A DNA stretch of 64,000 nt from an uncultured Duganella sp. GTDB taxonomy: Bacteria; Pseudomonadota; Gammaproteobacteria; Burkholderiales; Burkholderiaceae_D. Where the stretch lies: the NCBI GenBank assembly GCA_963511605.1, contig CAUPJZ010000029.1:10638-74637 (forward strand), in the 5' to 3' direction. A program made the position numbers and the translations under genes. The notes below the pieces were generated by a model that was not told the DNA's origin, searched no databases, and saw only the letters and a program-made list of their open reading frames with translations. Within the stretch, counting starts at the first letter, position 1; each line of letters opens with the position of its first letter. Positions 963 to 63,005 of the stretch are shown here, piece after piece.

Positions 963-1094
963 CCGGATAGATGGTGACATTTACGGACGGGAACGTCTTT
1001 TTCATCTAAATCGTGACGGAATCATGCCACAATACAAATCGCATCCCCGAGAGGGTGCGATGAGACGTGCCGTTCCCGATTGAGGTAGTTGAAG

Positions 1095-2324: not shown

Positions 2325-2402
2325 ACCCGCGCCCAGCGGCGGATCGCGGATCGCGGTTCGGGTTTAACGTATTTGACCAAGATACGCTTAAATCATGACC
2401 GT

Positions 2403-2425
2403 GCTTGGTGGTTTTCGTAATTGCC
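2403..2425. promoter_or_regulatory. Candidate XylR operator, copy 1
   Basis: GCTTGGTGGTTTTCGTAATTGCC matches 10434-10456 at 20/23 positions; lies upstream of the xylX-xylB/xylD/xylFGH operon. Confidence 0.55.
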
Positions 2426-2488
2426 CCCACCCCTGAATAAGGTGAAAATCTCCCACGCAGTTTGCTAGCCTGCCTGGAGAGAGAGACC

Positions 2489-4444
2489 TTGGAAAATAAT
2501 ATAAATTCGATGCTGCCGGACGATGTGAGCCGCGCAGTGCTGGTGGGACGTGTATGGCGTGATGGCGTCATCAATGGTCCTTGTGTGGTCGCCGTACGCA
2601 ACGGCGAGGTGTTCGACATCACCGGCCACGCCCCGACCATGTCCGATTTGCTGGAGCGCGGCGACGCGCTGGAAGTGGCCCGTTCCGCTCCCGGCGAATC
2701 GCTCGGCCCGGTGCAGGCCTTGCTGGCGAATGCCATCGGCGGCGGCGCCGACGGCGGCATACCGCGCCTGCTGGCGCCATGCGACCTGCAGGCGATCAAG
2801 GCCTGCGGCGTGACCTTCGCGGTCAGCCTGCTGGAACGCGTGATCGAAGAGCAGGCCGCCGGCGATCCGTCGCGCGCCAACGCCCTGCGCGCCGAAATCC
2901 AGACCATCATCGGTTCCGACCTGTCGGCCATCCGTCCGGGCTCGCCGGAAGCGGCCAAGCTGAAGGCGGACCTGATCGCGCGCGGCCTGTGGTCGCCATA
3001 CATGGAAGTCGGTATCGGCCCGGACGCAGAGGTGTTCTCCAAGTCGCAGCCGATGTCCGCTGTCGGCGTGGGCGCCGACGTCGGCCTGCACCCCGATTCG
3101 AAGTGGAACAACCCGGAGCCGGAGATCGTCCTGGCGGTCAACAGCCAGGCCAAGGTGCTCGGCGCCACGCTGGGCAACGACGTCAACCTGCGCGACATCG
3201 AAGGCCGCAGCGCGCTGCTGCTGGGTAAAGCCAAGGACAACAACGGTTCGTGCTCGATCGGCCCGTTCATCCGCCTGTTCGACGAACACTTCACCATCGA
3301 CACCATCCGCAACGCGGAAGTGAGCATGCTGATCGAAGGCCAGGACGACGACTTCCGTCTGGCCGGCGCCAGCCGCATGCGCGAAATCAGCCGCGATCCG
3401 CTGGACCTGGTCAGCCAGGTGTGCGGCCGCCATCACCAGTACCCGGACGGCTTCATGCTGTTCCTCGGTACGATGTTCTCGCCGATCAAAGACCGCGACG
3501 CCGTCGGCGGCGGTTTCACCCACCATCTGGGCGACCGTGTCAGCATCTCGACGCCTTCGCTGGGCGCCCTGGTCAACCATGTGCAGCGCAGCGACCAGAT
3601 CGCACCGTGGACCTACGGCGTGCGCGCGCTGATGAACCGTGCCCGCGCTTCGGCTCCAGCGACCGCAAAACCGGCCGCGCAAACCAGGCCGGAACAGGCG
3701 ATCTATCCCAGCCTGGCCGGCAAGCGCGTGGTCGTCACCGGTGGCGGCAGCGGCATCGGCGCCGGCATCGTCGAGGCCTACGCGCGCCAGGGCGCCCGCG
3801 TGACCTTCCTCGACATCGCCGAAGCCGATTCGCGCGCGCTGGAGGCGACCTTGTCGACCCTGCCGGTGCCGCCGAAGTACCTGCACTGCGACCTGACCAA
3901 CCTCGACGTGCTGGCCAAGACGTTCGCCGACATCGGCACCGTCGATATCCTGATCAACAATGCCGCCAACGACGACCGCCACAACCTGGCCGACGTCACG
4001 CCGGCATACTGGGAAGGCCGCATGGCGGTCAACCTGCGCCATCAATATTTCTGCGCCAAGGCCGTGGCGCAGGGCATGCGCGAGCAGGGCGGCGGCGTGA
4101 TCCTGAACTTCGGTTCGATCTCGTGGCACCTGGCGCTGCCGGACCTGACCCTGTACATGATGGCCAAAGCCGCCATCGAGGGCATGACCCGTGGCCTTGC
4201 GCGCGATCTTGGACCTGATAATATCCGTGTCAATTGCATTATTCCTGGCGGCGTCCGTACGCCGCGCCAGGAAGCGCTGTGGCACACGCCGGACGAGGAA
4301 GCCCGCATCCTGGCCGGCCAGTGCCTGAAAAAGCGCGTGCAGGTGGACGACGTGGCGGCCATAACGCTGTTCCTTTCCTCGGACAGCGCCTCGGCGTGCT
4401 CCGGTCGTGAATACTTCGTCGATGCCGGCTGGTACGGCGCATAA
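2489..4444 (+). CDS. Fusion of FAA-hydrolase-family 2-keto-3-deoxy-D-xylonate dehydratase (XylX-like) and SDR D-xylose 1-dehydrogenase (Caulobacter XylB-like)
   Basis: N-domain 'AIKACGVTFAVSLLERVIEE...WNNPEPEIVL...GATLGNDVNLRDIEGRSALLLGKAKDNN'. C-domain 'AIYPSLAGKRVVVTGGGSGIG...NNAAND...YxxxK (YMMAK)'. No stop between them; A/P-rich linker. Start is TTG 2489 (after GGAGA) or ATG 2510. Confidence 0.85.
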   Translation: MENNINSMLPDDVSRAVLVGRVWRDGVINGPCVVAVRNGEVFDITGHAPTMSDLLERGDALEVARSAPGESLGPVQALLANAIGGGADGGIPRLLAPCDLQAIKACGVTFAVSLLERVIEEQAAGDPSRANALRAEIQTIIGSDLSAIRPGSPEAAKLKADLIARGLWSPYMEVGIGPDAEVFSKSQPMSAVGVGADVGLHPDSKWNNPEPEIVLAVNSQAKVLGATLGNDVNLRDIEGRSALLLGKAKDNNGSCSIGPFIRLFDEHFTIDTIRNAEVSMLIEGQDDDFRLAGASRMREISRDPLDLVSQVCGRHHQYPDGFMLFLGTMFSPIKDRDAVGGGFTHHLGDRVSISTPSLGALVNHVQRSDQIAPWTYGVRALMNRARASAPATAKPAAQTRPEQAIYPSLAGKRVVVTGGGSGIGAGIVEAYARQGARVTFLDIAEADSRALEATLSTLPVPPKYLHCDLTNLDVLAKTFADIGTVDILINNAANDDRHNLADVTPAYWEGRMAVNLRHQYFCAKAVAQGMREQGGGVILNFGSISWHLALPDLTLYMMAKAAIEGMTRGLARDLGPDNIRVNCIIPGGVRTPRQEALWHTPDEEARILAGQCLKKRVQVDDVAAITLFLSSDSASACSGREYFVDAGWYGA

Positions 4445-4468
4445 GAAGCACAGGGACGCTTAAAGAGA

Positions 4469-6259
4469 ATGAGCAATGACATGAACAACCAGCAGCCACG
4501 CCGCTACCGCTCGCAAGACTGGTTCGACAATCCAGACCATATCGACATGACCGCGCTCTATCTCGAGCGCTTCATGAACTACGGGATCACGCCGGAAGAG
4601 CTGCGCTCGGGCCGGCCGATCATCGGCATCGCGCAAAGCGGCAGCGACATCAGCCCGTGCAACCGCATACACCTGGAGCTGGCCAAGCGCGTGCGCGATG
4701 GCATTCGTGATGCGGGCGGTATCGCGATGGAATTCCCGCTGCATCCGATCTTCGAGAACTGCCGTCGTCCGACTGCGGCGATCGACCGCAACCTGGCCTA
4801 TATGGGCCTGGTCGAGATCCTGCACGGCTATCCGATCGACGCCGTGGTGCTGACCACCGGCTGCGACAAGACCACGCCGTCGCAGATCATGGCCGCATCG
4901 ACGGTGGATATCCCCGCCATCGTGCTGTCCGGCGGTCCGATGCTGGATGGCTGGTTCGAGGGTGAGCTGGCCGGTTCCGGCGCGGCGATCTGGAAGGGCC
5001 GCCGCCAGCTGGCCGCCGGCACCATCGACAACGAGAAGTTCCTGCAGATCGCCGCCGCTTCGGCGCCGTCGGCGGGACACTGCAACACCATGGGCACCGC
5101 GTCGACGATGAACGCCATCGCCGAAGCGCTGGGCATGTCGCTGACCGGCTGCTCGGCGATTCCCGCGCCATACCGCGAGCGTGGCCAGATGGCCTATGAA
5201 ACCGGCCGCCGCATCGTCGAGATGGCAAAGCTGGACATCAAGCCTTCTTCGATCCTGAACCGCGACGCCTTCCTGGACGCGATCGTGGTCAACGCCGCCA
5301 TCGGCGGCTCGACCAACGCGCAGCAGCACATCGTCGCGATGGCGCGCCACGCCGGCGTCGAGCTGCATTCGAGCGACTGGATGGAATACGGCCACAAGGT
5401 GCCGCTGCTGCTGAACATGCAGCCGGCCGGTAAATTCCTGGGCGAGCGTTTCCACCGCGCGGGCGGCGTGCCGGCCGTGATGTGGGAGCTGGAACAGCAG
5501 GGCATGTTGCGCTCGGAGCGCGCCACCGTCACCGGCCGCACCATGCGCGACAACCTGGCCGGCAAAGAGACGCAGGACCGCGAAGTGATCTTCCCGTTCA
5601 ACGCGCCGCTGAAAGAAGATGCGGGCTTCTTCGTCTTGAAAGGCAACCTGTTCGACTTCGCGATCATGAAGACCAGCGTGATTTCGCCGGCCTTCCGCGA
5701 GCGTTATCTGAGCAAGCTCGGACAGGAAAACGTGTTCGAGTCGCGCGCCGTGGTGTTCGACGGTTCGACCGACTATCACAACCGTATCAACGATCCGGCG
5801 CTGAACATCGACGAGGACTGCATCCTCGTGATTCGCGGCGCCGGCCCGGTGGGCTGGCCTGGTTCGGCCGAGGTGGTGAACATGCAGCCGCCCGATGCGC
5901 TGGTCAAGCGCGGTGTCAACTGGCTGCCGACCCTGGGCGACGGACGCCAGTCCGGCACCTCGGACAGCCCGTCGATCCTGAACGCGTCGCCGGAAAGCGC
6001 CGTCGGCGGCGGTCTGGCGTGGCTGCGCACCGGTGATATGATCCGCGTCGATCTGAACGCCGGCACTTGCGACGCGCTGGTGCCGCAGGCCGAGTGGGAA
6101 GAACGCAAGAAGGGCGCGCTGCCGGCCATTCCGGCCAGCCAGACGCCTTGGCAGGAGATTTACCGCAGCACCGTAGGCCAGATGGAAAGCGGCGCTTGCA
6201 TGGAACTGGCTGTACCATACCGGGGCGTGGCGGATAATCCGGCCCGGCATAATCATTAA
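4469..6259 (+). CDS. xylD: IlvD/Edd-family dehydratase, D-xylonate dehydratase (XylD)
   Basis: 'SDISPCNRIH', 'TGCDKTTP', 'GHCNTMGTASTMN', 'GDGRQSGTS' motifs; xylose operon context. Confidence 0.88.
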   Translation: MSNDMNNQQPRRYRSQDWFDNPDHIDMTALYLERFMNYGITPEELRSGRPIIGIAQSGSDISPCNRIHLELAKRVRDGIRDAGGIAMEFPLHPIFENCRRPTAAIDRNLAYMGLVEILHGYPIDAVVLTTGCDKTTPSQIMAASTVDIPAIVLSGGPMLDGWFEGELAGSGAAIWKGRRQLAAGTIDNEKFLQIAAASAPSAGHCNTMGTASTMNAIAEALGMSLTGCSAIPAPYRERGQMAYETGRRIVEMAKLDIKPSSILNRDAFLDAIVVNAAIGGSTNAQQHIVAMARHAGVELHSSDWMEYGHKVPLLLNMQPAGKFLGERFHRAGGVPAVMWELEQQGMLRSERATVTGRTMRDNLAGKETQDREVIFPFNAPLKEDAGFFVLKGNLFDFAIMKTSVISPAFRERYLSKLGQENVFESRAVVFDGSTDYHNRINDPALNIDEDCILVIRGAGPVGWPGSAEVVNMQPPDALVKRGVNWLPTLGDGRQSGTSDSPSILNASPESAVGGGLAWLRTGDMIRVDLNAGTCDALVPQAEWEERKKGALPAIPASQTPWQEIYRSTVGQMESGACMELAVPYRGVADNPARHNH

Positions 6260-6275
6260 AATAATTACAGAATAA

Positions 6276-6359
6276 CGTAGGGCGGATTAGCGCAGCGTAA
6301 TCGGCCAAGCGCCGTCAGCGGCTCATGGCCGATTACGGCTACGCCTAATCCGCCCTACG
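6276..6359. repeat. REPIN (inverted pair of GTAG-type REP elements)
   Basis: GTAGGGCGGATTA-GC-GCA-GC-GTAATCGGCC ... GGCCGATTAC-GGC-TAC-GCC-TAATCCGCCCTAC. Confidence 0.9.
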
Positions 6360-6441
6360 AAAATCGCGAAATCGTTAAAGTTAGTGGCATTAGTAGGGCC
6401 TGTGTCAGGCAAAACGGCATTCGAATCAGGAGACGAAACAA

Positions 6442-7449
6442 ATGAAGAAATTACTGAGTGCGGCCGCCATCGCGGTCATGATGGTGTGCGCCGGCGGTAA
6501 CGCCATGGCGGACGCCAAGAATCCTAAAATCGGCTTTTCCATCGACGACCTGCGCCTCGAGCGCTGGGCGCGCGATCGCGACTACTTCGTCGCCGCCGCT
6601 GAAAAGCAGGGCGCCAAAGTCTTCGTGCAGTCGGCCGACGCCAGCGAGCAGCGCCAGATCGCCCAGATCGAGAACCTGATTTCGCGCGGCGTCGACGTGC
6701 TGGTCATCGTTCCCTACAACGCCACGGTGCTGAACAACGCCGTCAAAGAGGCGAAGAAGGCCAAGATCAAGGTCGTCTCGTACGACCGCCTGATCCTCAA
6801 CGCCGACATCGATGCCTACATCTCCTTCGACAACAAGGCCGTGGGCGAAATGCAGGCGCAGGGCGTGGTGGCCGTCAAACCTAAGGGTAACTACTACCTG
6901 CTGGGCGGCGCGCCGACCGACAACAACGCCAAGATGCTGCGCGAAGGCCAGCTGAAGGTGCTGCAGCCGCTGATCGACAAGGGCGACATCAAAGTCGTCG
7001 GCAAGCAGTGGGTCAAGGACTGGAATCCAGCCGAGGCGATGTCCATCGTCGAAAACGCGCTGACCGCCAACGGCAACAAGCTCGATGCGGTGGTCGCCTC
7101 CAACGACGCCACCGCCGGCGGCGCGATCCAGGCGCTGGCTTCGCAAAAGCTGGACGGCAAAGTGGCCGTCTCCGGCCAGGACGCCGATCTGGCCGGCGTG
7201 CGCCGCGTCATCGCCGGCACCCAGACCATGACGGTCTACAAGCCGCTTAAGCTGATCGCCACCGAGGCGGCCAAGCTGTCGGTCCAGCTGGTGCGCGGCG
7301 AAAAGCCGGCCTTCAATTCGCAGTACCAGAACGGCTTCAAGCAAGTCGATACGCTGCTGCTGAAGCCGACCATGCTGACCAAGGCGAATATGGATGTCGT
7401 CGTGGCCGACGGCTTCTATACCAAGGCCCAACTCGCGGCAGCGAAGTAA
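6442..7449 (+). CDS. xylF: D-xylose ABC transporter periplasmic binding protein
   Basis: Signal peptide; 'KIGFSIDDLRLERWARDRDYF', 'VASNDATAGGAIQAL', 'SGQDADLAG'; RBS AGGAGA. Confidence 0.95.
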   Translation: MKKLLSAAAIAVMMVCAGGNAMADAKNPKIGFSIDDLRLERWARDRDYFVAAAEKQGAKVFVQSADASEQRQIAQIENLISRGVDVLVIVPYNATVLNNAVKEAKKAKIKVVSYDRLILNADIDAYISFDNKAVGEMQAQGVVAVKPKGNYYLLGGAPTDNNAKMLREGQLKVLQPLIDKGDIKVVGKQWVKDWNPAEAMSIVENALTANGNKLDAVVASNDATAGGAIQALASQKLDGKVAVSGQDADLAGVRRVIAGTQTMTVYKPLKLIATEAAKLSVQLVRGEKPAFNSQYQNGFKQVDTLLLKPTMLTKANMDVVVADGFYTKAQLAAAK

Positions 7450-7581
7450 TCGCCGCTTCATGAAGACCGGGGCGTCGTCCACGCCCCGCCGTGCGTTCGC
7501 ACTGTCTTTCGCCACGCCCCGTTCCGCTGATTGTGCAGCGGCGTGCGCGTGGCGAGTTCCACCACCTCTGCGAGAACCAGT

Positions 7582-9108
7582 ATGTCCGGCTATTTGCTAG
7601 AAATGAAGGGCATCGTCAAAAAATTTGGCGGTGTTCCGGCGCTCGACGGCATCGACCTGCAAGTGCGGGCCGGTGAGTGCATCGGCTTGTGCGGCGAGAA
7701 TGGCGCCGGCAAGTCGACCCTGATGAAAGTGCTGTCCGCCGTCTACCCGCACGGCACCTGGGACGGCGAGATTCTCTTCGACGGCAAGCCGCTGCGCGCG
7801 CAGTCGATCCGCGAAAGCGAGGCCGCCGGCGTCGTCATCATCCACCAGGAACTGATGCTGGTGCCGGAGCTGTCCGTGACCGAGAATCTGTTCCTCGGCA
7901 ATGAGATCACCTTGCCGGGCGGCCGCATGGATTATTCGGCCATGAACCAGCGCGCCGAGGCGCTGCTGAAAGAATTGAACCTGACCGACGTCAACGTGGT
8001 GCTGCCGGTGTCGAACTACGGCGGCGGCCACCAGCAGTTGATCGAGATCGCCAAGGCGCTGAACAAGAACGCGCGCCTGCTGATCCTGGACGAGCCGTCG
8101 TCGTCGCTGACGACCTCCGAGATCCAGGTGCTGCTCGATATCATCCGCGGCCTGAAGGCCAAGGGCGTGGCCTGTGTCTACATCTCGCACAAGCTCGACG
8201 AGGTCGAGGCGATCTGCGACACCATCGTCGTCATCCGCGACGGCCAGCACATCGCCACCACGCCAATGGACAAGATGGACGTCAAGCAGATCATCGCGCA
8301 GATGGTCGGCCGCGAAATGAACCAGCTGTATCCGACGCTGGAGCGCGCGCCGAGCGAGGAAATCGTGTTCGAGGCGCGCAACGTGATTTGCTACGACGTC
8401 GAGAAGCCGGAACGCAGGAAGGTCGACAACGTCTCCTTCGCGCTGCGCAAGGGCGAGATCCTCGGCATCGCAGGCCTGGTCGGCGCCGGCCGCACGGAGC
8501 TGGTGTCGGCGCTGTTCGGCGCCTATCCGGGCCGTTCGGAGGCCGAGGTATGGCTCAACGGCGCCAGGATCGATACCGGCACGCCGCTCAAGGCGATCCG
8601 CGCCGGCCTGGCGCTGGTGCCGGAGGACCGCAAGCAGCACGGCATCGTGCGCGACCTGGACGTCGGCCAGAACATCACCTTGTCGGTGCTGGGGCGCTTC
8701 TCGAAGTTCACCCGCATCGACCGCGAGGCGGAACTGAAGGTGGTCAGCGAGGAGATCGCGCGGCTGGCGCTGAAGACGGCCAGCCCGTTCCTGTCGATCA
8801 CGTCGCTCTCGGGCGGCAACCAGCAGAAGGCGGTGCTGTCGAAGATGCTGCTGACGCGCCCCAAGGTGCTGATCCTCGACGAGCCGACACGCGGCGTCGA
8901 CGTCGGCGCCAAGTTCGAGATCTACAAGTTGATGCTGGAACTGGCCAGCCAGGGCGTCTCCATCATCATGGTGTCCTCCGAACTGGCCGAAGTACTGGGC
9001 GTGTCCGACCGCGTGCTGGTCATGGGCGAGGGCAAGCTGCGCGGCGATTTCATCAACCAGAACCTGACCCAGGAAACGCTGCTGTCGGCGGCACTCGATC
9101 ATTCGTGA
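7582..9108 (+). CDS. xylG: D-xylose ABC transporter ATP-binding protein
   Basis: Walker A GENGAGKS, two NBD halves, [20 protein letters not shown]. Confidence 0.95.
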
Positions 9109-9127
9109 TGACTTATCTTTGAAATCC

Positions 9128-10270
9128 ATGAAAACCTTAAATCTCAAACAGCTCTTCACGCAGTACAAGATCCTGGCGCTGCTGATCGCCATCGCCATCA
9201 TCTGGGCCTTCTTCAGCTGGAAGACGGAGGGCGGCTTCATCTCGCCGCGCAACCTGTCCAACCTGATGCGCCAGATGGCCGTCACCGGCATCGTCGCCTG
9301 CGGCATGGCCTTCGTCATCATCGCCGGCGAGATCGACCTGTCGGTCGGCTCGCTGCTCGGCCTTCTGGGCGGGGTGGCGGCGGTGCTCGACGTCACCCAC
9401 CACATGCCGCTGCCGGCCACCATCGCGGTGGTGCTGGCCTGCGGCCTGGTGCTTGGCCTGTTCAACGGCTATCTGACGGCCTACAAGCACATACCGTCCT
9501 TCATCGTGGGCCTGGGCGGCATGCTGGCCTACCGCGGCATCGTGCTGGGCGTGACCGACGGCGTGACGGTGGCGCCGGTGTCCGAACCGCTGGTCAACCT
9601 GGGCCAGGGCTACCTGTCGCCGCAAATGGGCGTGGTGCTGGGCGTGGGCCTGTTCATCCTGGGCGCCGTGCTGACCTGGCGCCAGCGCGCCAGCCTGGCG
9701 CGCCACGGCCTGCCGGTGCCGCCGATGTGGCGTGACGGTTTGCGCCTTGCAGCAATTGGTGCGGTGCTTTTCGCTTTCGTGCGCACCCTGAACAGCTACG
9801 AGGGCATCCCGCTGCCGGTCTTGCTGCTGCTGGTTTTGCTCGGTGTGTTCAGCTATGTTGCGACGCAAACCGTGTTCGGTCGCCGCATCTACGCGGTGGG
9901 CAGCAACATGGAGGCGACGCGCCTGTCGGGCGTCAATGTGCAGGCCGTGAAGCTGTGGATCTTCGGGATCATGGGCCTGATGTGCGCACTGGCTGGCCTG
10001 ATCAACACGGCCCGTCTGGCGGCAGGTTCGCCGTCGGCCGGCACCTCGGGCGAACTCGATGCGATCGCGGCCTGCTTCATCGGCGGCACCTCGATGCGCG
10101 GCGGCTCGGGCACCGTGTACGGCGCCTTGATCGGCGCGCTGGTGATGGCCAGCCTGGATAACGGCATGTCGATGCTGGACGTCGACACCTACTGGCAGAT
10201 GATCGTCAAGGGCTGCATCCTGACGTTGGCGGTGTGGGTCGATGTGGCGACGCGCTCGGGCCGCCGTTGA
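9128..10270 (+). CDS. xylH: D-xylose ABC transporter permease
   Basis: Multiple TM helices; 'GEIDLSVGS', 'FGRRIYAVGSN', 'ELDAIAACFIGGTS'. Confidence 0.95.
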   Translation: MKTLNLKQLFTQYKILALLIAIAIIWAFFSWKTEGGFISPRNLSNLMRQMAVTGIVACGMAFVIIAGEIDLSVGSLLGLLGGVAAVLDVTHHMPLPATIAVVLACGLVLGLFNGYLTAYKHIPSFIVGLGGMLAYRGIVLGVTDGVTVAPVSEPLVNLGQGYLSPQMGVVLGVGLFILGAVLTWRQRASLARHGLPVPPMWRDGLRLAAIGAVLFAFVRTLNSYEGIPLPVLLLLVLLGVFSYVATQTVFGRRIYAVGSNMEATRLSGVNVQAVKLWIFGIMGLMCALAGLINTARLAAGSPSAGTSGELDAIAACFIGGTSMRGGSGTVYGALIGALVMASLDNGMSMLDVDTYWQMIVKGCILTLAVWVDVATRSGRR

Positions 10271-10308
10271 ATTTGAATAGCCAAGCTGAATAGCTGAGTC
10301 CGGTTTCA

Positions 10309-10346
10309 GCGACACGCGGCCCGCAACGACGGGCCGCGTTGTCGTT
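10309..10346 (+). terminator. GC-rich stem-loop after xylH (probable terminator)
   Basis: ACGCGGCCCG-caacga-CGGGCCGCGT inverted repeat, followed by tgtcgttt. Confidence 0.6.
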
Positions 10347-10433
10347 TACGGCCCAGTTTGTCTGCGGATTTGTACGAGGGTTCGTGTGCGGGATTGTGTG
10401 ATGCGCGCGACGCTTGCGGATTATCATTCCGCC

Positions 10434-10456
10434 GCTTGGTGAATTTCGCAATTGCC
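10434..10456. promoter_or_regulatory. Candidate XylR operator, copy 2
   Basis: GCTTGGTGAATTTCGCAATTGCC; near-identical to 2403-2425; upstream of the TonB receptor/GH operon. Confidence 0.55.
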
Positions 10457-10719
10457 ACACTTTTGCGTAACTTGCAAAATGTTTGCATATCATCGTGTGG
10501 CCTTGGCACCCCGCCAGTAAAGCCAGAACGAAAAAAAATATTAAAGAGCGAGACGTCCCAATGAAGATCAAACAACCGCGCCTTGTGGCGCCTGCGGGTG
10601 TCGTTCGTCCCGCGTTCGGAATCACCCACCCCAGGCTAGTCCCAAGTGCCGCTGAAAAGCACCAATAACAAATAGCCTAAGAGCTATGAAAAATTCGTAT
10701 ACCTTTTGGAGAGCGTAAC

Positions 10720-13700
10720 ATGAAACAGTTTAAAAAGACAGCGATCGCACTGGGCCTGGCCCAGATGGCGATGATGGCCAGCGGTGCTTCGCACGCGCAG
10801 ACCGCCCAGGCGCCGGCCGCACAATCCGACACCCCGGCGCCAGCCGCGGCCCCGGTGGCGGTGGTCATCACCGGCCAGCGCGCGGCGCTGCAGTCGGCCC
10901 AGAAAATCAAACAGAACGCCGACGAGGTGGTCGACTCGATCTCCGCCGACGATATCGGCAAGCTGCCGGACCGTTCGGTGACCGAGGTGCTGCAGCGCGT
11001 CTCGGGCGTGACCATCGACCGCGCCATGTCGCGCGCCGACCCGGATCACTTTTCGGTCGAAGGCTCCGGCGTGTCCGTGCGTGGCCTGAGCTACGTGCGT
11101 TCGGAACTCAATGGCCGCGATTCGTTCTCCGCCAACGGTGGCCGCTCGCTCAACTTCGAAGACGTGCCGCCAGAGCTGATGGCCGGCGTCGACATCTACA
11201 AGAACCCGTCGGCGGAACAGGTGGAGGGCGCCATCGGTGGCCTGATCAACCTGCGCACCGCGATGCCGTTCGATTACAAGGGCTTCAAGGCCTCCATCAG
11301 CGGCTCGGAGACCTACTCCGAACTGCGCAAGGGCAAAGCATCGCCATCGGGTTCGGGCATGGTCTCCAACCGCTGGAAAACCCCGTTCGGCGAGGTCGGC
11401 GCCCTGATCGACCTGGCCTACTCGGAATCGGCCACCCGCACCGACGCCATCCAGGTCGAGCCGTACTACCCGCGCAACGATATCGAACCGGGCCGCACCG
11501 TCTACGTGCCAAAGGGCGCGCAATGGCGTTCGCTGAACTTCGACCGCACCCGCGAAGGCGCATATGGCGCGTTGCAGTGGAAGCCGAACAGCCAGATCAC
11601 CACCGGCCTGACCTACTTCAAGTCGAAGTACAAGATGACCTGGGACGAGCAGGCGATCTTCGCCCAATCGAGCCCTTACAACATTCAGGTCGCGAACGGC
11701 AAGTACGCCGACAACGGCACCTTCATCAGCGGCACGCTGAGCGATCCGGCCGACGGCGGCATCAACTTCAACAACGACACCCGTACCGCGTGGCGCAAGT
11801 CCGACACCACCGACGTGTCGTGGAACATGCGCTGGCGCCCGAACGATCGCTGGACCATCACCACCGATCTGCAGCGCATCCGCGCCAACACCGAGAGCGT
11901 CGATTCGACCGTGGCCACCGGCCTGAGAATGCCGAAGGAACAGCTGGACCTGTCGGGCAGCCTGCCGAACATCATCTTCGACGCCGCCGACCGCGCCAAT
12001 CTGGCCAATCCGAACAACTACTACTGGGCGTTCACGATGGAGCACCTGGATCGCGCCAAGGCCGATTCGGACGCGGGCAAGATCGATCTGAAATACGACT
12101 TCGACCACCCGATCTTCCGCGACATCAAATTCGGTGCGCGCATGACCAACCGTGATTCGGTCACCGAGAACTCCAACCCAAGCTACAACTGGGCCGCAGT
12201 CACCCAGCCATGGCAGGGCGAGATCAGTGGTCTGGCCTACCTGGGCGACCCGCGTTTCTCGGGCAATACCTCGACCCACAGCTTCGATAACTTCTTCAAC
12301 GGTAAAATGAGCGTGCCGGCCGTGGTGTTCCCGAACTCCTCGCTGTCCCAGGGCTATCCATCGAGCTACGCCACGCTGCACTCCTACCACGATATCCTGT
12401 GCGCGGAGAAGAACGCCACCCTGGCCGCCGCCGGCCAGCCGACCAACACCTGCACGCCGTGGAAAGCGGCCACCTTCGGCGGCGACCCGGCCGGTCTCAA
12501 CTCGCAGAGCGAGAAGACCAAGGCGCTTTACACGCAAACCCGCTTCGGCTTCGACGACCTGAAATTCCCGATCGACGGTAACATCGGCCTGCGCTATGTG
12601 AAGACCGATGCCACCGCCAGCGGCTACACGGTGTTCAACTCGACCGCCCCAAGCAACCCGGCAATCCCGGTGTTCAACAGCTTCTCGCGTGCGGACACCT
12701 ACCAGAACTCGTACCACAACTGGCTGCCTAGCCTGAACCTGCGCATGAAGGCCAGCGACACGCTGCAGTTCCGCTTCGCCTACGCCGGCGCGATGTCGCG
12801 TCCGGACCCTTCGCAGCTGCAGGGCTACACCACCTTGAGCCAGAGCGCCGACGTCGCCGCCAACGGCACCGTCAACAGCATCACCTACTCCGGTGAAGCC
12901 AAGGGCAATCCGAACCTGCGTCCGATCACCGCCAAGCAGCTCGACCTGACCGCCGAGTGGTACTTCTCGCCGGTTGGTTCGTTCACGCTGGCCGTGTTCA
13001 ACAAGCGCCTGAAGGACGTCATCGTCAACCAGACCACCGCGTTCCAGCTGAACGATGTCACCGGACGGGGGTACAACTTCATCACCACGGCGCCGGTCAA
13101 CGGCGCCAAGGGCCGCGCGCGCGGTTTCGAGCTGGCTTACCAGCAGTACTTCGACAAGCTGCCTGGCGCCTGGTCGGGCCTGGGCCTGCAGGGTAACTTC
13201 ACCTTCGTCGACAGCGAGCGCACCTTGTACAACGGCGTGTTCCAGCAGTACTGCACCGGCAGCGGCGGTGGCGCGGCAAACCTGAACCTGAACCTGAACG
13301 GTTGCGACACCAACGGCACCACCTTCGGCAATCTGCCGCTGGAAAACCTGTCCCGTCGTTCGTACAACATCGCTCTGATGTACGACAAGGGTCCATGGTC
13401 GGCGCGCCTGGCCTACAACTGGCGTTCGAAGAGCCTGCAGGCGGTCAACGTGAACGGCACCCAGGGTACCGACGGCACGGACACCAATCCGGCCAGCGCC
13501 ACCTTCGGCCAGCGTAACGTCGCCTGGGGTCTGCCGACTTGGGCGGACGACTACGGCCAGGCCGATGCCTCCGTGTCGTACAAGATCAACGAGCGTATTC
13601 AGATCGGTCTGGAAGCCCAGAACATCACCGACTCCAAGTACAAGGTCCTGATGCAGCAAAACATCGGTATGATGGGCCGCGCATGGTTCTCGTCCGGTCC

Positions 13701-46987: not shown

Positions 46988-47029
46988 TTGATGTACATCA
47001 ATTGAAACATGCTACCTACAGACAATAAT
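46988..47029 (+). promoter_or_regulatory. FNR-type box plus -10 element (class II promoter)
   Basis: TTGAT-GTAC-ATCAA at 46988-47001, inside the 20-bp palindrome CAATTGATGTACATCAATTG; AATAAT at 47024-47029 places the box near -41.5. Confidence 0.75.
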
Positions 47030-58953: not shown

Positions 58954-59199
58954 ATGCCAGCCACTTTGCATCCGACCAAAGAGCAGGTACGTGCTTATAT
59001 GCAACTGCGTGAGTGTGACCGCCGTCCACCACCGACGCCGGAAGAAATCCGTCGTCAGTTGGGCTGGCGCTGCGCGTCCAGCAGTGCGGGCTTCGGGTCC
59101 ACTGCGACGATCTTCCTCCCAAGCACCATTGCGCAATTGGCCACGCTGATGGCCGTCGAATGGTGTTTCCTCGCCTCCGGCCTTAGCCGCTCGAACTGA
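58954..59199 (+). CDS. Small hypothetical protein (PxKEQVRxYM...PPPxPEEIRRQLGW motif)
   Basis: AGAGGAG RBS; motif recalled from Oxalobacteraceae hypotheticals. Confidence 0.7.
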   Translation: MPATLHPTKEQVRAYMQLRECDRRPPPTPEEIRRQLGWRCASSSAGFGSTATIFLPSTIAQLATLMAVEWCFLASGLSRSN

Positions 59200-59468
59200 G
59201 TTGCTACAAAACTTTACAATGTTCTATACCATTTCTTGCAACAAATTTCTTACTAGCATAAGAAATAGGTGTAGAATCTATCAAAATCTCACACAAAAAC
59301 AGCTCGGGTTAGCCGTTCGTTAACAAAAACGTGTATTATCGCGGCTAGGCACTAAAAACCGGCATAAACGTTCGCGTTTTGTAGTGCTTCACTGGTAATT
59401 GAGCTAAAAATTTTATTTACCCATGTGTCGTTTTTTTGCGAAAGCGGCCACGAACCTACTTAAACATT

Positions 59469-59708
59469 ATGTCTATCAAAGAAATCACCGCATCCCCAAC
59501 CTACAATCCGAACCGCGTCCTCGACGCCATCATCGAAAAGCTGCAACTGAAAAACGATGCTGCGTTGTCGCGTGCCCTGGAAGTAGCCCCTCCAGTCATC
59601 AGCAAAATTCGCCACAATACCCTCCCGATTGGTGCAACCATCCTGATCCGTATGCACGAGATCAGCGATTTCAGCATCCGCGAGCTGCGCGAACTGATGG
59701 CGGCCTGA
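59469..59708 (+). CDS. Small Cro/XRE-like HTH protein
   Basis: 'NDAALSRALEVAPPVISKIRH' helix-turn-helix pattern; 79 aa. Confidence 0.8.
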   Translation: MSIKEITASPTYNPNRVLDAIIEKLQLKNDAALSRALEVAPPVISKIRHNTLPIGATILIRMHEISDFSIRELRELMAA

Positions 59709-59807: not shown

Positions 59808-60008
59808 TTACGCTGACGTGCTGATCGTCGTGCCGATGCGCTGGCCGTTGGTGTTCACGGTGGGCGCGGGTGCCGCTTGCTGCGGCGGCGGTGCCGGCGG
59901 CGCCGCTTGCTCGGCAGGTTTGGGCGCGGCCTGCACCGGTTCGGCCTGGCGCGGTGGCGGCGTTGATTGGACTGCGGCGCTGTTTGAGGCGACTGAATTG
60001 ACGGCCAT
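59808..60008 (-). CDS. Small P/A/Q-rich protein with conserved-looking C-terminal 'VNTNGQRIGTTISTSA'
   Basis: GGGAG RBS; 66 aa. Confidence 0.7.
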   Translation of the reverse strand: MAVNSVASNSAAVQSTPPPRQAEPVQAAPKPAEQAAPPAPPPQQAAPAPTVNTNGQRIGTTISTSA

Positions 60009-60129
60009 GATGAGCTCCCAAGACGGTGGAGTTCAGAGTATGCCACTTATTTAATCATGCCGCCTGTCGGCGTTGCGTGTTTTGGGTGGCAACGCCGGCC
60101 ACAGCTTATGTTGTTGGCGGACCGGAGAT

Positions 60130-60162
60130 GGCGGATTACGCTTCGCTAATCCGCCCTACGTG
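60130..60162 (-). repeat. Single REP
   Basis: Reverse complement GTAGGGCGGATTA-GC-GAA-GC-GTAATCCGCC. Confidence 0.88.
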
Positions 60163-60258
60163 GTTTAGATGACAGCCCAGGCCGATGGCCGCCGGGTGCT
60201 TCCTAGCTCAGGGTGGGACGGCCGCTGAACAGGCCGGGCTGGTTCGGGACTTTGCCCG

Positions 60259-60987
60259 CTACTGCCTTCTCCGGGCTGCCGCAAAAAGCGACTTTTTCTT
60301 CGGGGAGCCGCAAAACGCGTTGGCTTGTTTCTCCGGTGAACCGCAAAATGCGTTGGCTTGCTTCTCAGGTGAGCCGCAGAAGGCGTTGGCTTGTTTTTCT
60401 GGCGAGCCACAAAACGCGTTGGCCTGTTTCTCGGGCGAGCCGCAGAAGGCGTTGGCCTGTTTCTCGGGCGAGCCGCAGAAGGCATTGGCCTGTTTCTCGG
60501 GTGAGCCGCAGAAGGCGTTGGCTTGCTTTTCGGGCGAGCCGCAGAAGGCGTTGGCCTGCATTTCCGGCGAGCCGCAGAAGGCGTTGGCTTGAGTGGCGCC
60601 TTCGAAGGCACGCTTGGCCGGACGCACATAGGCCTCGCCGAATTCCGCTTCGTACAGTTCCTTCATCCGCTGCCCGATGCGCGCCAGTGCCGCTTCGTCT
60701 TCCTCGCCGCGCATGCCGACGTACGGGAAGTGGTGCAGGAAGTAACCGAACACGGCCTCGCAATCGGCGGCGTACTTCATCGTATCGAGGATGTGGTAGT
60801 GCCAGAACGTGTCGACGTCGACCAGCGGCGAGGTCTGTTCGTGGGGGTATTTTTTCATGAGCGTCAGGAACCGGCGATATTCCAACTCGATAGCGTTAAC
60901 ATGTTCCAGCGACCAGCCTTCGCCGGACTCTTTATGCATCAGCTTGACCTTGATGGGGTCCAGATCCAGGGCGTTGATGACGTTCAT
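60259..60987 (-). CDS. DUF1399/glycine-rich-domain-protein-like (GRDP-like) domain fused to tandem Cys-containing peptide repeats
   Basis: AGAGGAG RBS 6 nt before ATG 60987; 'EYRRFL', 'VDTFWHYHILDT..Y..DC', 'FLHHFPY', then 9x QANAFCGSP(EK). The true end may be 60203 (see frameshift finding). Confidence 0.8.
   Translation of the reverse strand: MNVINALDLDPIKVKLMHKESGEGWSLEHVNAIELEYRRFLTLMKKYPHEQTSPLVDVDTFWHYHILDTMKYAADCEAVFGYFLHHFPYVGMRGEEDEAALARIGQRMKELYEAEFGEAYVRPAKRAFEGATQANAFCGSPEMQANAFCGSPEKQANAFCGSPEKQANAFCGSPEKQANAFCGSPEKQANAFCGSPEKQANAFCGSPEKQANAFCGSPEKQANAFCGSPKKKSLFAAARRRQ
60301..60591 (-). repeat. Coding tandem repeat, 9 x 33 bp
   Basis: Units at 60559-60591, 60526-60558 and so on down to 60301-60327 (last unit 27 bp); every unit differs at DNA level. 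Confidence 0.97.
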
Positions 60988-61065: not shown

Positions 61066-61079
61066 TTGATATTTATCAA
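61066..61079. promoter_or_regulatory. Perfect FNR-type box upstream of the GRDP-like repeat gene
   Basis: TTGAT-ATTT-ATCAA; a minus-strand (A/C)AAAAT near 61038-61044 fits class II spacing. Confidence 0.75.
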
Positions 61080-61148: not shown

Positions 61149-63005
61149 TCAGGCGATAACGTTGGCGGTCAGATGGCCGGCGTCGTTGATATCGTTGATA
61201 TCGTCGTTGGAGGGCGGGGGGACGTGGTCGATCGGTACCGAGATGGCGACCGTGGTGCCGGCGTTGGGGCTGCCGATGATGGAGCAGACGCCTCCGAGCA
61301 AGCTGATGCGCTCCTCGATGCCGACCAGGCCGAACGAACCCACCTTGTTGCGATTGCTCGCCCGCATGCCGACACCGTTGTCGGTGATGGTCATGCTCAG
61401 CATGCCGCCGGCCTGCCGCAATTCCACCCGGACCATGCTGGCGTGGGCGTGCTGGACGATGTTGCTCAGCGATTCCTGCAGCACGCGGAAGAAGGCGGTG
61501 GCGCAATGGTCGTCGATGCGGATGTCGCGCTGGTGCTCGATCAGCTCGCACACCATGCCGGAGCGCTGGCGGAACTGGGCGATCTGCCATTCGACGGCGG
61601 CGTTCAGGCCCAGGTCCAGCACGTTCGGACGCAGGTCGTTGATGATGTGGCGCACGCTTTTGATGGTGCTGTCGATCTGGCTGAGCGTGCTTTTCGCGCG
61701 GGCGTGCAGGCGCGGATGCCGGTGGCGGGTACGGGTGGCCAGCATGTCCGCCTCGATGCGCAGCACCAGCAGGTTCTGGCCCAGGTCGTCATGGATTTCG
61801 CGGGCGATGCGCTTGCGTTCCTGCTCCTTGATCTGGTCGGCGTGCGCGGCCAGCCGGCGCAGCTTGTGGTGCGACTGCTGCAGCTTGGCCTGGCTGTCGC
61901 GCAATTCCTTGGTCATGACCTTGGCCATCTTGATCGCCCGCATGCGCGACGACGACAGTGTGTGGATCAGCAGGTAAAACAGCAGCGAGCCGATAAAACC
62001 GCTCAACATGGCCAGCCACGGCAGGAACAGGTCGAAACGGCTCGACCAGGCCGCCTTGGGCGCGCTGAAGTGGGCATGCCACTGGCGGCCGTTGAACATC
62101 AGCGGCAGCACCACGCCGAACTGGTCGGCCGGGCGCACGTTTTCGCCGCCGTTGACCTTGTTGTCGAATAACAAGGTGGGCGCCGACGTGGCCGAGGAAC
62201 GGTCGCCGCTCTCGCCGCCGTCGTACAGGCGCAGGCGCACGTCGCGCACCTGCATTTGGTCCATGGCCAGTTGCACCAGGCGCGGCACGCTGAAACCGAT
62301 GCCGACCGAACCCCGGTAGGCGGCGCGGCGCTCCTCGATGTTGGTCAGCGGCATATCCTTGCGGTACAGCGGCAGGCGGATCGCCATGCCGCCGCCCTGG
62401 CCGAAGCTGTCCATGTCGATCTGCTTGCCGGAGGTGCTGATCTCGCCGGTGTCGCGCGCGTTGGACAGGGCCTGCGCCACCGGCGGCTTGTGCGTGATGT
62501 CCAGGCCGACCCGCCAGCGGAACGCCGCGATCGGCTCGATCATCGTGATGACGGAATAGTCGGCGCGGCGGCCGGTCGGCTGGATGACGTAGTCGGGATA
62601 GCCGTCGGGGGTGCCGTCGCCGCTGCGCCGCGATACCTTTTCGAAATTCTCGCGCTGCGCTTCGGTGATGTACTCGGCGTAGTTGATGCTGACGAGCGCG
62701 GGAAACCGGGTCGACAGTTTCAGTCCGCGCACAAAGCGGTGGAAGTCTTCGCGTTCGACGTTGTCGCTGGCCTCGAAGTAGCTGGCCGTCGCGCGCAGCA
62801 CGTCGGCATAGGTGTCGATGCGGGAGCTGATGTGGTATTGCGCATTGCGCGCCTGGTGCATGAAGCGTTCGCCGGCGTCGTACTCGACCATCTTATAGGC
62901 GGCCACATAGCACAGCGCGCCCACGCCCAGGGACAGCATGATGCCCGCCCACCAGACGGATTTCGGCGGTGAAAACATTTGTCGCTGCGCGAGAAGTACC
63001 TCCAT
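61149..63005 (-). CDS. CHASE-domain sensor histidine kinase (HisKA_3/NarQ-UhpB type)
   Basis: TM-CHASE-TM; H-box 'ERKRIAREIHDDLGQ'; 'FFRVLQESLSNIVQHA', 'DNGVG', 'FGLVGIEER'. Start could be ATG 62978. Confidence 0.92.
   Translation of the reverse strand: MEVLLAQRQMFSPPKSVWWAGIMLSLGVGALCYVAAYKMVEYDAGERFMHQARNAQYHISSRIDTYADVLRATASYFEASDNVEREDFHRFVRGLKLSTRFPALVSINYAEYITEAQRENFEKVSRRSGDGTPDGYPDYVIQPTGRRADYSVITMIEPIAAFRWRVGLDITHKPPVAQALSNARDTGEISTSGKQIDMDSFGQGGGMAIRLPLYRKDMPLTNIEERRAAYRGSVGIGFSVPRLVQLAMDQMQVRDVRLRLYDGGESGDRSSATSAPTLLFDNKVNGGENVRPADQFGVVLPLMFNGRQWHAHFSAPKAAWSSRFDLFLPWLAMLSGFIGSLLFYLLIHTLSSSRMRAIKMAKVMTKELRDSQAKLQQSHHKLRRLAAHADQIKEQERKRIAREIHDDLGQNLLVLRIEADMLATRTRHRHPRLHARAKSTLSQIDSTIKSVRHIINDLRPNVLDLGLNAAVEWQIAQFRQRSGMVCELIEHQRDIRIDDHCATAFFRVLQESLSNIVQHAHASMVRVELRQAGGMLSMTITDNGVGMRASNRNKVGSFGLVGIEERISLLGGVCSIIGSPNAGTTVAISVPIDHVPPPSNDDINDINDAGHLTANVIA

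What the first reader, a model, noticed from the sequence alone, without database searches (positions are those of the whole stretch)
60259..60987. His-rich DUF1399/GRDP-like domain fused to nine selectively conserved QANAFCGSPEK cores: candidate self-processing multicore peptide or thiol/metal-handling system
Seen: a domain of about 125 aa with clustered potential metal ligands (VDTFWHYHILD, DC, FLHHFPY), followed by nine 11-aa units with one Cys each. All nine units differ in DNA. Synonymous variation affects 10 of 11 codon positions (for example Pro CCG/CCT/CCA/CCC, Ser TCC/TCA/TCG, Ala GCC/GCA/GCG), yet among the eight full units there is only one amino-acid change (K to M). That pattern points to selection on the exact peptide rather than recent slippage. 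Known: enzyme-plus-repeated-core fusions occur in RiPP biosynthesis (BURP-domain cyclases, borosin methyltransferases), and Cys-repeat precursors are modified for metal binding by MNIO/DUF692 enzymes. I know of no established biochemical function for DUF1399. Inference: the N-domain may be a metalloenzyme acting on its own F-C-G cores (cleavage after Lys would expose an N-terminal Gln), or the tail may be a metal/redox sponge. No separate tailoring enzyme or transporter is adjacent.
Basis: partly seen in the sequence, partly recalled or inferred. Interest (0 to 1): 0.9.

Follow-up and report, generated by a model that had tools for sequence, protein, structure and literature searches.

The report
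Repeat-tailed protein paired with CHASE sensor
This gene joins a conserved, His-rich helical domain of unknown function to nine copies of an 11-residue peptide; relatives always sit beside a membrane receptor with a CHASE sensor domain, so it may be the precursor of an undescribed bacterial signal.

Summary
A minus-strand gene (60987-60259) encodes a 125-residue helical domain followed by nine QANAFCGSPEK units. The units differ almost only at synonymous sites (pS 0.66, pN 0.02).

The gene belongs to the unstudied family PF27765 (UCP032817-like, distantly GRDP/DUF1399). The domain has no match among solved structures. Of 358 relatives, 335 carry tails built on an invariant Ala-aromatic-Cys/Ser core, with the rest of each unit varying between species. 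Ser replaces Cys in 41%, which argues against a thiol or metal role.

New here: every repeat-bearing relative examined lies next to a CHASE-domain receptor. That covers 79 Oxalobacteraceae loci and 7 of 7 non-syntenic betaproteobacterial loci, in both gene orders. Three of the seven partners have a GGDEF-EAL output instead of a kinase. In Massilia tandem modules, the kinase core and the N-domain are homogenised, while the CHASE domain and the tail stay distinct.

An FNR-type box precedes the gene and 86 of 113 relatives. This strain also carries a real 1-base deletion that cuts off a tenth unit and the conserved C-terminal RPxL motif.

Best reading, at about 40%: a cytoplasmic multi-copy precursor of a peptide-derived signal sensed by the neighbouring CHASE receptor. 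The chemistry is unknown.

The parts
60592..60987 (-). N-terminal domain (residues 1-132; folded part 1-125). Six helices. Invariant residues include K13, K15, H18, G22, G24, W25, YRRFL, FWHYHILDT, D75, C76, FG.FLHH.PY.G.
   Evidence: AlphaFold2 pLDDT is above 90 over most of residues 1-125. Invariant columns come from 81 relatives. Pfam GRDP-like hit at the cut-off. TM 0.73 to a giant-virus GRDP-like model.
60295..60591 (-). Nine tandem 33-bp units encoding QANAFCGSPE(K/M). The tail is predicted to be disordered.
   Evidence: TRF. Unit table with pS 0.66 and pN 0.02. pLDDT is below 50.
60301..60305 (-). Frameshift site. A C4 run on the minus strand, where relatives have C5. The deletion puts the last 32 ancestral codons out of frame.
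   Evidence: 'Put in behind 60301: G' appears in runs X4 and X5 but not in the source-sample contigs X1 (121x) and X3. Comparison with L005 and L015.
60203..60300 (-). Ancestral C-terminus, now in the -1 frame: EEKV-AFCGSPEK (a tenth unit), then AVAGKVPNQPG-LFSGRPTLS*, which carries the family's C-terminal [FY]xxRPxL motif.
   Evidence: ORF 60203..60346. C-termini of P0002, P0006 and L005. The RPx[LFM] motif is present in 193 of 358 relatives.
60259..60294 (-). Out-of-frame replacement end, (K)KKSLFAAARRRQ plus the stop, read in this strain.
   Evidence: Translation.
61066..61079 (.). FNR/CRP-family box TTGATATTTATCAA, centred about 85 nt upstream of the ATG. An AAAAAT hexamer lies about 30 nt downstream of the box centre.
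   Evidence: Only 2 perfect boxes occur in 64 kb, against 0.04 expected. A box with 0 or 1 mismatch lies upstream of 86 of 113 related genes.
61149..63005 (-). Partner sensor kinase. The order is TM1, CHASE (residues 81-268, periplasmic by its flanking hydrophobic segments), TM2, HisKA_3, HATPase_c. There is no receiver domain.
   Evidence: Pfam. Adjacent in all 79 related genome loci where the flank is present, and in 7 of 7 distant loci.

Best explanation
The gene encodes a cytoplasmic protein of the UCP032817-like family. A constant, GRDP-like helical domain carries a disordered tail of nine 11-residue units; the ancestral count was ten.

I propose that the tail is a multi-copy precursor. 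It would be cut or chemically altered at the invariant Ala-aromatic-Cys/Ser site of each unit. The N-domain would act in cis as the maturation or docking module. The released variable part of each unit, as a peptide or a small molecule derived from it, would leave the cell and be sensed by the periplasmic CHASE domain of the receptor encoded next door.

In Oxalobacteraceae the precursor gene is switched on by an FNR-type regulator, that is, when oxygen is low.

Shown: the architecture, the family-wide core motif, purifying selection on the units, the pairing with CHASE receptors, the mosaic of conserved and diverged segments, the conserved FNR box, and the frameshift in this strain.

Inferred: processing, export, binding to CHASE, and the chemistry at the Cys/Ser.

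In this strain the lost C-terminal motif may weaken or abolish function.
For: (1) Units are under strong purifying selection (pS 0.66, pN 0.02).

(2) Of 358 relatives, 335 have at least 2 units. The consensus is A 94%; Y39/F28/W17/H15; C59/S41; G51/A28. The following positions vary between species but are uniform within a protein.

(3) There is no signal peptide, and the tail is disordered.

(4) A CHASE protein is adjacent in 79 Oxalobacteraceae loci. It is also adjacent in 7 of 7 other betaproteobacterial loci with unrelated flanks and both gene orders. Three of those partners are CHASE-(PAS/GAF)-GGDEF-EAL rather than kinases, so the shared element is the CHASE sensor. One pair overlaps by 4 nt. 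The window's own genome has only 8 CHASE genes.

(5) In Massilia tandem modules the kinase cores are 89-100% identical (dS 0.11-0.25) and the N-domains of several module pairs are 97-99% identical (dS 0.03-0.18). The CHASE domains are 56-64% identical (dS 0.8-1.1) and the tails differ.

(6) At 95% or higher kinase identity, CHASE identity is 91% when the unit cores are identical, 70% with one difference and 60% with two. The aromatic residue needs 13 changes on the CHASE tree against 20 on the kinase tree.

(7) Transcripts of relatives about 94% identical cover the gene.
Against: No protease, exporter or tailoring enzyme is consistently adjacent. An MFS_3 transporter is nearby in only some loci.

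The protein has no secretion signal.

The covariation of CHASE and tail could reflect shared ancient ancestry of each module. Gene conversion confined to the similar middle part would give the same picture, and conversion there never separates CHASE from tail in cis.

Over long distances, CHASE similarity follows phylogeny rather than tail type.

A single kinase is often followed by two genes with different tails.

No ligand of a bacterial CHASE domain other than cytokinin is reported in the papers I could search.

Adjacency fits equally well if the receptor simply regulates this gene.
Confidence: 0.4

Rival explanations
1. The protein is a self-contained peptide natural-product precursor. The N-domain is an enzyme, possibly metal-dependent, that modifies or excises its own Ala-aromatic-Cys/Ser cores. 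The product would be an antibiotic, metallophore or cofactor-like compound. The CHASE system would only regulate or respond to production.
For: The domain-plus-multicore architecture, with an invariant three-residue core and a variable remainder. Invariant His, Asp and Cys residues in the domain. More distant relatives of the domain also end in Cys-rich tails, such as RCMRKNCKPQKCR, or TM segments followed by CGGCGGD. That suggests the domain generally works with a Cys-bearing C-terminal peptide.
Against: The fold has no match to any solved enzyme (TM at most 0.26) and no PDB sequence match. No transporter or immunity gene is consistently adjacent. This reading does not explain why the sensor domain, rather than the output domain, is the conserved neighbour. 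It also does not explain why identical N-domains serve different tails.
Confidence: 0.2
2. The protein is the regulated effector or a cytoplasmic modulator of the CHASE pathway, not its input. The receptor senses an outside compound. The tail, with its many nucleophilic Cys/Ser residues next to aromatic residues, binds or captures that compound or a downstream product inside the cell. Alternatively, the protein feeds back on signalling.
For: Conserved adjacency and possible co-transcription. The gene has its own FNR-type promoter, typical of a regulated target. The protein is cytoplasmic. Many C-termini end in ..LAA/..AA (129 of 358); from my own knowledge, that ending resembles tags that direct proteins to proteolysis.
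Against: A GGDEF-EAL output does not directly control transcription, yet adjacency persists. The parts that stay distinct between paralogous modules are the periplasmic CHASE domain and the tail. A cytoplasmic protein cannot touch the CHASE domain.
Confidence: 0.2
3. The tail is a thiol-based metal or redox buffer, a ribosomal analogue of metallothionein or phytochelatin, induced under low oxygen.
For: One Cys per unit and a His-rich domain. An FNR-type box.
Against: In 41% of repeat-bearing relatives the Cys is Ser, with the same flanking Ala-aromatic and Gly/Ala. Cys is isolated, with no CxxC or CC pairs. Selection acts on the whole 11-residue unit.
Confidence: 0.05
4. In this strain the gene is a decaying pseudogene, and the repeat array is selectively neutral low-complexity sequence.
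For: A real 1-base deletion removes the conserved C-terminus.
Against: The remaining 229 codons that precede the deletion are intact, with pN/pS 0.03 between units. The family has thousands of intact members. Close relatives are transcribed. The slippery-looking G AAA AAG just after the deletion could even allow some -1 read-through, though this is untested.
Confidence: 0.05

Closest known systems
Pfam PF27765 'UCP032817-like' (PIRSF032817) and PF07173 'GRDP-like' (DUF1399), the plant glycine-rich domain proteins GRDP1/2
   Same: The N-domain carries the family signature W-H-x-H-[IL]-L-D-T ... D-C ... F-L-H-H-x-P. Close homologs are annotated PF27765. PF07173 hits at its cut-off. The predicted fold matches giant-virus GRDP-like proteins at TM 0.73. 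Plant and many bacterial members also pair the domain with a Gly/Cys-rich low-complexity tail (the plant architecture is described in PMC4299439).
   Different: No biochemical function is known for any member, so membership explains nothing. The Ala-aromatic-Cys/Ser unit tail and the CHASE partner are specific to this betaproteobacterial branch. They are not mentioned in any paper found.
Peptide quorum-sensing cassettes with specificity groups (staphylococcal agrBDCA; Bacillus comQXPA)
   Same: A small variable precursor is encoded next to its membrane receptor. The sensor part of the receptor and the precursor are divergent, while the kinase core is conserved. From my own knowledge, the Cys of the agr peptide is replaced by Ser in some staphylococci.
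   Different: There is no AgrB- or ComQ-like processing gene. The precursor is fused to a 125-residue folded domain and carries 2-19 copies. The receptor sensor is a periplasmic CHASE domain in a Gram-negative organism. Secretion is unproven.
Enzyme-fused multicore RiPP precursors (plant BURP-domain cyclases, fungal borosin methyltransferases) and tandem-core precursors such as ustiloxin UstA or yeast alpha-factor
   Same: A folded domain and repeated cores sit in one polypeptide. Cores are identical within a protein and differ between species.
   Different: The domain is unrelated to BURP or to SAM methyltransferases (no Pfam hit). No modification has been demonstrated. There are no Kex2-type basic cleavage sites.
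TIGR04222 'near_uncomplex' membrane proteins with Gly/Cys/Ser-rich C-termini
   Same: More distant relatives of the N-domain are fused to this membrane domain and end in CGGCGGD-type tails. One such paralog is in the window's own genome (G000:C30).
   Different: The window protein has no membrane segment, and its tail is a structured unit repeat rather than a Gly/Cys run.

Membership tests
GRDP-like / DUF1399 (PF07173) | Match to the Pfam profile at or above the gathering score | tested here: met
   22.7 bits against a cut-off of 22.7, over residues 36-75 only. This is borderline. Relatives P0338 and P0357 score 26.8 and 20.5 bits.
GRDP-like / DUF1399 (PF07173) | Same fold as other annotated GRDP-like proteins | tested here: met
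   Foldseek against BFVD: Harvfovirus 'Glycine-rich domain-containing protein-like', E 1.8e-5, TM 0.73, 28% identity. An Orpheovirus GRDP protein gives TM 0.58.
UCP032817-like (PF27765) | Profile match | tested here: inconclusive
   The model is absent from the local Pfam copy. All 120 best homologs, down to about 45% identity, carry the precomputed PF27765 annotation, including proteins 90-95% identical to the window's. Membership is therefore inferred, not scored directly.
Enzyme-fused RiPP precursors (BURP, borosin) | Fused domain belongs to the BURP or N-methyltransferase family | tested here: not met
   No such Pfam or NCBIfam hit. No PDB fold match.
Enzyme-fused RiPP precursors (BURP, borosin) | Repeated core peptides in the same polypeptide, conserved within and variable between species | tested here: met
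Enzyme-fused RiPP precursors (BURP, borosin) | Autocatalytic modification of the cores | not testable with these tools
   Needs mass spectrometry of the expressed protein.
MNIO (DUF692)-modified Cys-repeat precursors | An adjacent DUF692 enzyme and its partner protein | tested here: not met
   Neither appears among the called neighbours in 11 annotated loci or in the window flanks.
agr/com-type peptide signal cassettes | Precursor gene adjacent to its receptor gene | tested here: met
   79 loci plus 7 of 7 distant loci. That the neighbour is the precursor's receptor is the hypothesis, not a result.
agr/com-type peptide signal cassettes | Divergent precursor and sensor domain alongside a conserved kinase core | tested here: met
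   Massilia paralogous modules.
agr/com-type peptide signal cassettes | A dedicated processing or export protein in the cassette | tested here: not met
   None is adjacent. An MFS_3 or MFS_1 gene is nearby in only some loci.
agr/com-type peptide signal cassettes | A secreted peptide that activates the receptor | not testable with these tools
   Needs a supernatant or synthetic-peptide assay.

The most novel reading that the evidence does not exclude
The UCP032817-like repeat proteins and their neighbouring CHASE receptors form a previously unrecognised self-signalling system in Gram-negative bacteria. A cytoplasmic precursor fused to a domain would yield up to 19 copies per molecule of a peptide-derived signal. 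The invariant Ala-aromatic-Cys/Ser site would be the processing point, possibly through an N-to-S/O acyl shift, heterocyclisation or cyclisation. The variable residues would set receptor specificity. This would give 'pherotype'-like module families and the first native ligand class for bacterial CHASE domains. By extension, it would give a first biochemical role for the GRDP/DUF1399 domain found in plants, fungi and giant viruses.
Probability: 0.3. Interest if true: 0.92.

Novelty: categorically new. Interest (0 to 1): 0.78.

Why it matters
CHASE domains are widespread bacterial sensors, but the only ligand named in the papers I could find is cytokinin. DUF1399/GRDP proteins influence plant stress and development with no known biochemistry.

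A family with thousands of sequence clusters (5354 at 50% identity) ties the two together through a conserved gene pair, which gives both problems a direct experimental handle.

If the tail units are signals, this would be a new route to peptide signalling in Gram-negative soil and rhizosphere bacteria (Duganella, Massilia, Janthinobacterium). It would come with natural specificity variants. In this lineage it would also be linked to oxygen limitation.

If the domain instead modifies its own tail, it would be a new self-acting peptide-modifying fold.

Tried and rejected
1. Fold assignment. Foldseek of both models against the PDB gave nothing (best E 0.6-2.8, TM at most 0.26). A profile search of PDB sequences gave no hits. 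No enzyme class can be assigned.

2. NCBIfam gave no hit for the protein or its close relatives.

3. Literature searches for DUF1399, UCP032817, PF27765, PF07173, GRDP-like, and the annotation name combined with genus names returned only plant or unrelated papers. The Burkholderia 'BiofilmReg' operon paper concerns CHASE2 and is not relevant.

4. Sulfatase-type formylglycine motif. The family motif is [CS]-[GA]-x-[PA], not C/S-x-P-x-R. I rejected this by inspection.

5. Heme-regulatory Cys-Pro motif. Cys is never followed directly by Pro. Rejected.

6. Conserved basic cleavage sites between units are absent in most relatives.

7. I tested whether tail type predicts CHASE similarity across distant lineages. 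It does not. L124 (FCYAA) is closer to L126 (WCVVA), at 61%, than to L125 (FCYAA), at 45%.

8. The FNR box is not a general feature. It is absent upstream of the five distant betaproteobacterial genes.

9. Neighbours of three distant tail-less or Cys-tail homologs (a Na/H antiporter, PntB, a release factor, a PBP, OmpA) showed no shared partner and no CHASE.

10. AlphaFold2 did not dock any unit onto the domain with confidence.

11. Programmed -1 frameshifting at G AAA AAG is conceivable but not conserved, because relatives are in frame. A plain mutation is simpler.

Full report
**What is there**

On the minus strand, an ATG at 60987 is preceded by GAGGAG with 6-nt spacing. It opens a 242-codon frame that ends at 60259.

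Residues 1-125 are predicted with high confidence to form a compact bundle of six helices. pLDDT is above 90 over most of this part, and pTM is 0.80 for the domain alone. Everything after residue 125 is predicted to be disordered.

The tail consists of nine 33-bp units at 60295-60591 (TRF). Each encodes QANAFCGSPEK.

All nine units differ in DNA, and 10 of 11 codon positions carry synonymous variants. Units 1-8 differ by one residue only. Over all unit pairs, pS is 0.66 and pN is 0.02.

**A frameshift in this strain**

Close relatives (L005, L015, P0002, P0006) continue after the ninth unit. Their sequence reads ...SPEEKV-AFCGSPEK-AV.AK.PNQPG-LFS.RP.LS.

In the window the same sequence is present, but in the -1 frame, running to a stop at 60203. 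The cause is one missing base in a C5 run on the minus strand, at about 60301-60305.

Contigs assembled independently from the source sample's reads show the same deletion, at depths of 121x and 6x. Relatives in two other samples have the extra base. The deletion is therefore real in this strain and is not an assembly error.

It removes a tenth unit and the C-terminal [FY]xxRPxL motif, which 193 of 358 relatives carry.

The deletion leaves CCG AAG AAA AAG. The heptamer G AAA AAG looks slippery for -1 shifting, which would restore the old frame. That is speculation, because relatives are simply in frame.

**The family**

Pfam gives only a borderline GRDP-like/DUF1399 hit. Homolog searches, however, return thousands of proteins annotated PF27765, 'UCP032817-like'.

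An exhaustive search of 1.84 billion cluster representatives finds 5354 clusters at E below 1e-3 and 237 below 1e-30.

The domain has no detectable relative among solved structures, by sequence or by fold. It does superpose on predicted giant-virus GRDP-like proteins at TM 0.73. It is thus a genuine member of the GRDP superfamily, whose biochemistry is unknown.

I found no paper on bacterial members.

**The tails of relatives**

Of 358 relatives with a tail, 335 have two or more units, with a median of 6 and up to 19 in genome loci.

The weighted consensus has Ala at 94%. Next comes an aromatic residue (Y 39, F 28, W 17, H 15%). Then comes Cys 59 or Ser 41%, and then Gly 51 or Ala 28%.

Examples include:
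- AFCGSPEK, AFCASPxK, AYCASPR, AYCGAAVK
- AFCAGPHK, AWCGATT, AHCGSAVK
- AYSGVP, AWSGAPNK, AHSGSPG
- AFCIKA, AYCMKA, AWCTRT

Within a protein the units are nearly identical. Between species the residues after the Cys/Ser differ, as do unit length and copy number.

Very close strains, with N-domains 93-98% identical, differ in all units at once (FCGSP against FCGAP) and in copy number (9 to 14).

The frequent Ser-for-Cys replacement in an otherwise unchanged context argues against a thiol, metal or redox role. It points instead to a reaction that either nucleophile can perform, or to a recognition site.

More distant relatives of the domain, in other Pseudomonadota, lack these units. They still end in short Cys-rich peptides such as RCMRKNCKPQKCR and KCRTKCKPVKCK. 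Others have membrane segments followed by Gly/Cys runs such as CGGCGGD, sometimes with TIGR04222. A Cys-bearing C-terminal peptide seems to be a general companion of this domain.

**The neighbour**

The gene directly upstream in the window (61149-63005) is a sensor kinase. Its CHASE domain lies between two hydrophobic segments and is followed by HisKA_3 and HATPase_c.

In all 79 related genome loci where the flank is present, a homologous kinase precedes one or two family genes on the same strand. Several Massilia species have two or three tandem kinase-plus-repeat-protein modules.

Because those loci also share GlnRS synteny, I looked further away. Seven repeat-bearing members from other Betaproteobacteria, with unrelated flanking genes, are each next to a CHASE protein:
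- Four are kinases. Two of these have the gene order reversed and are followed by a GerE-type response regulator.
- Three are CHASE-(PAS/GAF)-GGDEF-EAL proteins. One of these overlaps the repeat gene by 4 nt.

The window's genome has only eight CHASE genes, so chance adjacency is very unlikely. The output domain changes while CHASE stays, so the link appears to be with the extracytoplasmic sensor.

Three distant homologs without unit tails have no CHASE neighbour.

**A mosaic in paralogous modules**

Within one Massilia locus, the kinase cores are 89-100% identical, with dS of 0.11-0.25. In several module pairs the N-domains of the repeat proteins are 97-99% identical, with dS of 0.03-0.18. 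The CHASE domains are only 56-64% identical, with dS of 0.8-1.1, and the tails differ (YCAGP, YCASP, FCASP, FCAGP, WCAGP).

The middle of each module is thus homogenised by gene conversion, while the two ends stay distinct.

Across 80 modules, among pairs with at least 95% kinase identity:

| Unit-core match | Mean CHASE identity |
|---|---|
| identical | 91% |
| 4 of 5 positions | 70% |
| 3 of 5 positions | 60% |

The aromatic residue needs 13 changes on the CHASE tree against 20 on the kinase tree.

This is the pattern seen in specificity groups of peptide signalling loci. It can also arise from shared old ancestry of each module. Across distant lineages CHASE similarity follows phylogeny, not tail type. 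I count it as suggestive only.

**Regulation and expression**

A perfect TTGAT-N4-ATCAA box lies about 85 nt upstream of the ATG. It is one of only two in the 64-kb window, against 0.04 expected.

Of 113 related Oxalobacteraceae genes, 43 have a perfect box and 43 a one-mismatch box within 330 nt upstream. The five distant betaproteobacterial genes have none.

Control by an FNR/Anr/Dnr-type regulator is thus a conserved feature specific to this lineage. The inference that the gene responds to low oxygen rests on general knowledge of that regulator family.

RNA-seq contigs from relatives about 94% identical cover the gene. In one run a contig spans the kinase 3' end and the N-domain.

**Interpretation**

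The shown facts fit best a cytoplasmic multi-copy precursor. The constant domain would handle the constant Ala-aromatic-Cys/Ser site. The variable remainder would be read by the variable CHASE sensor next door.

Identical N-domains serving different tails fit this division of labour. I put this reading at about 0.4.

The weak points are:
- There is no export or processing gene.
- There is no secretion signal.
- Adjacency would look the same if the receptor merely regulated the gene.

Chemistry at the core cannot be decided from sequence. Possibilities include an acyl shift with cleavage, heterocyclisation, cyclisation, or simple proteolysis after the aromatic residue.

The metal or thiol sponge model is unlikely.

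**Earlier notes of this scan**

Two notes on this genome gave leads that I checked and confirmed: the hidden tenth repeat and the FNR box.

A follow-up on another genome had reached the same CHASE-pairing idea. I treat that as a repeat of the idea, not as independent support.

**Verdict**

The gene is a frameshifted member of a large, catalogued but uncharacterised family. Its conserved partnership with CHASE receptors is not described in the literature I could search. I rate it as lying outside known kinds of system, with interest 0.78.

Noticed in passing
window 60057-60170: A REP-like palindromic element sits just downstream of the gene. Its core is GCGGATTACGCTTCGCTAATCCGC. Six copies with at most 3 mismatches occur in the window, against 0 expected. 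It attracts very high RNA contig depth from relatives (up to 1742), so depth there says nothing about this locus.
   Followed up: partly
window 46988-47001: This is the only other perfect TTGAT-N4-ATCAA box in the 64-kb window (TTGATGTACATCAA).
   Followed up: no
G000:C30:719-943 (L085/L113): The same genome holds a second, very distant GRDP-like paralog in a 246-aa open frame. It has an N-terminal membrane segment, a WHEMILST...LHHTP core, and a C-terminus ending in CGAACGGGCGGGCGD. It has no Pfam or NCBIfam hit.
   Followed up: partly
L012, L029, L036, L042, L061, L065 (Massilia and Telluria loci): Tandem kinase-plus-repeat-protein modules show gene conversion confined to the kinase core and the N-domain (dS 0.03-0.25). 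The CHASE domains keep dS of about 1. This is a clear example of mosaic concerted evolution.
   Followed up: yes
window 59808-60008 (-), 59436-59708 (+), 58954-59199 (+): Small ORFs of 66, 90 and 81 aa lie between the repeat gene and the epimerase gene. None has a Pfam hit. Genes of similar size hold the same position in relatives (79-84 aa, opposite strand). Their function is unknown.
   Followed up: partly
L128 (JGI metagenome contig), 1-10942: Here the CHASE-PAS-GAF-GGDEF-EAL plus repeat-protein pair sits among about 20 short unannotated genes. The region looks like a prophage or mobile region, which hints that the pair can move as a unit.
   Followed up: no
C-termini of relatives (P0009-P0121 and others): 129 of 358 relatives end in ..AA (ALAA, ATAA, QAA). 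From memory, this resembles the C-terminal end of the ssrA degradation tag. It could mean regulated proteolysis.
   Followed up: no
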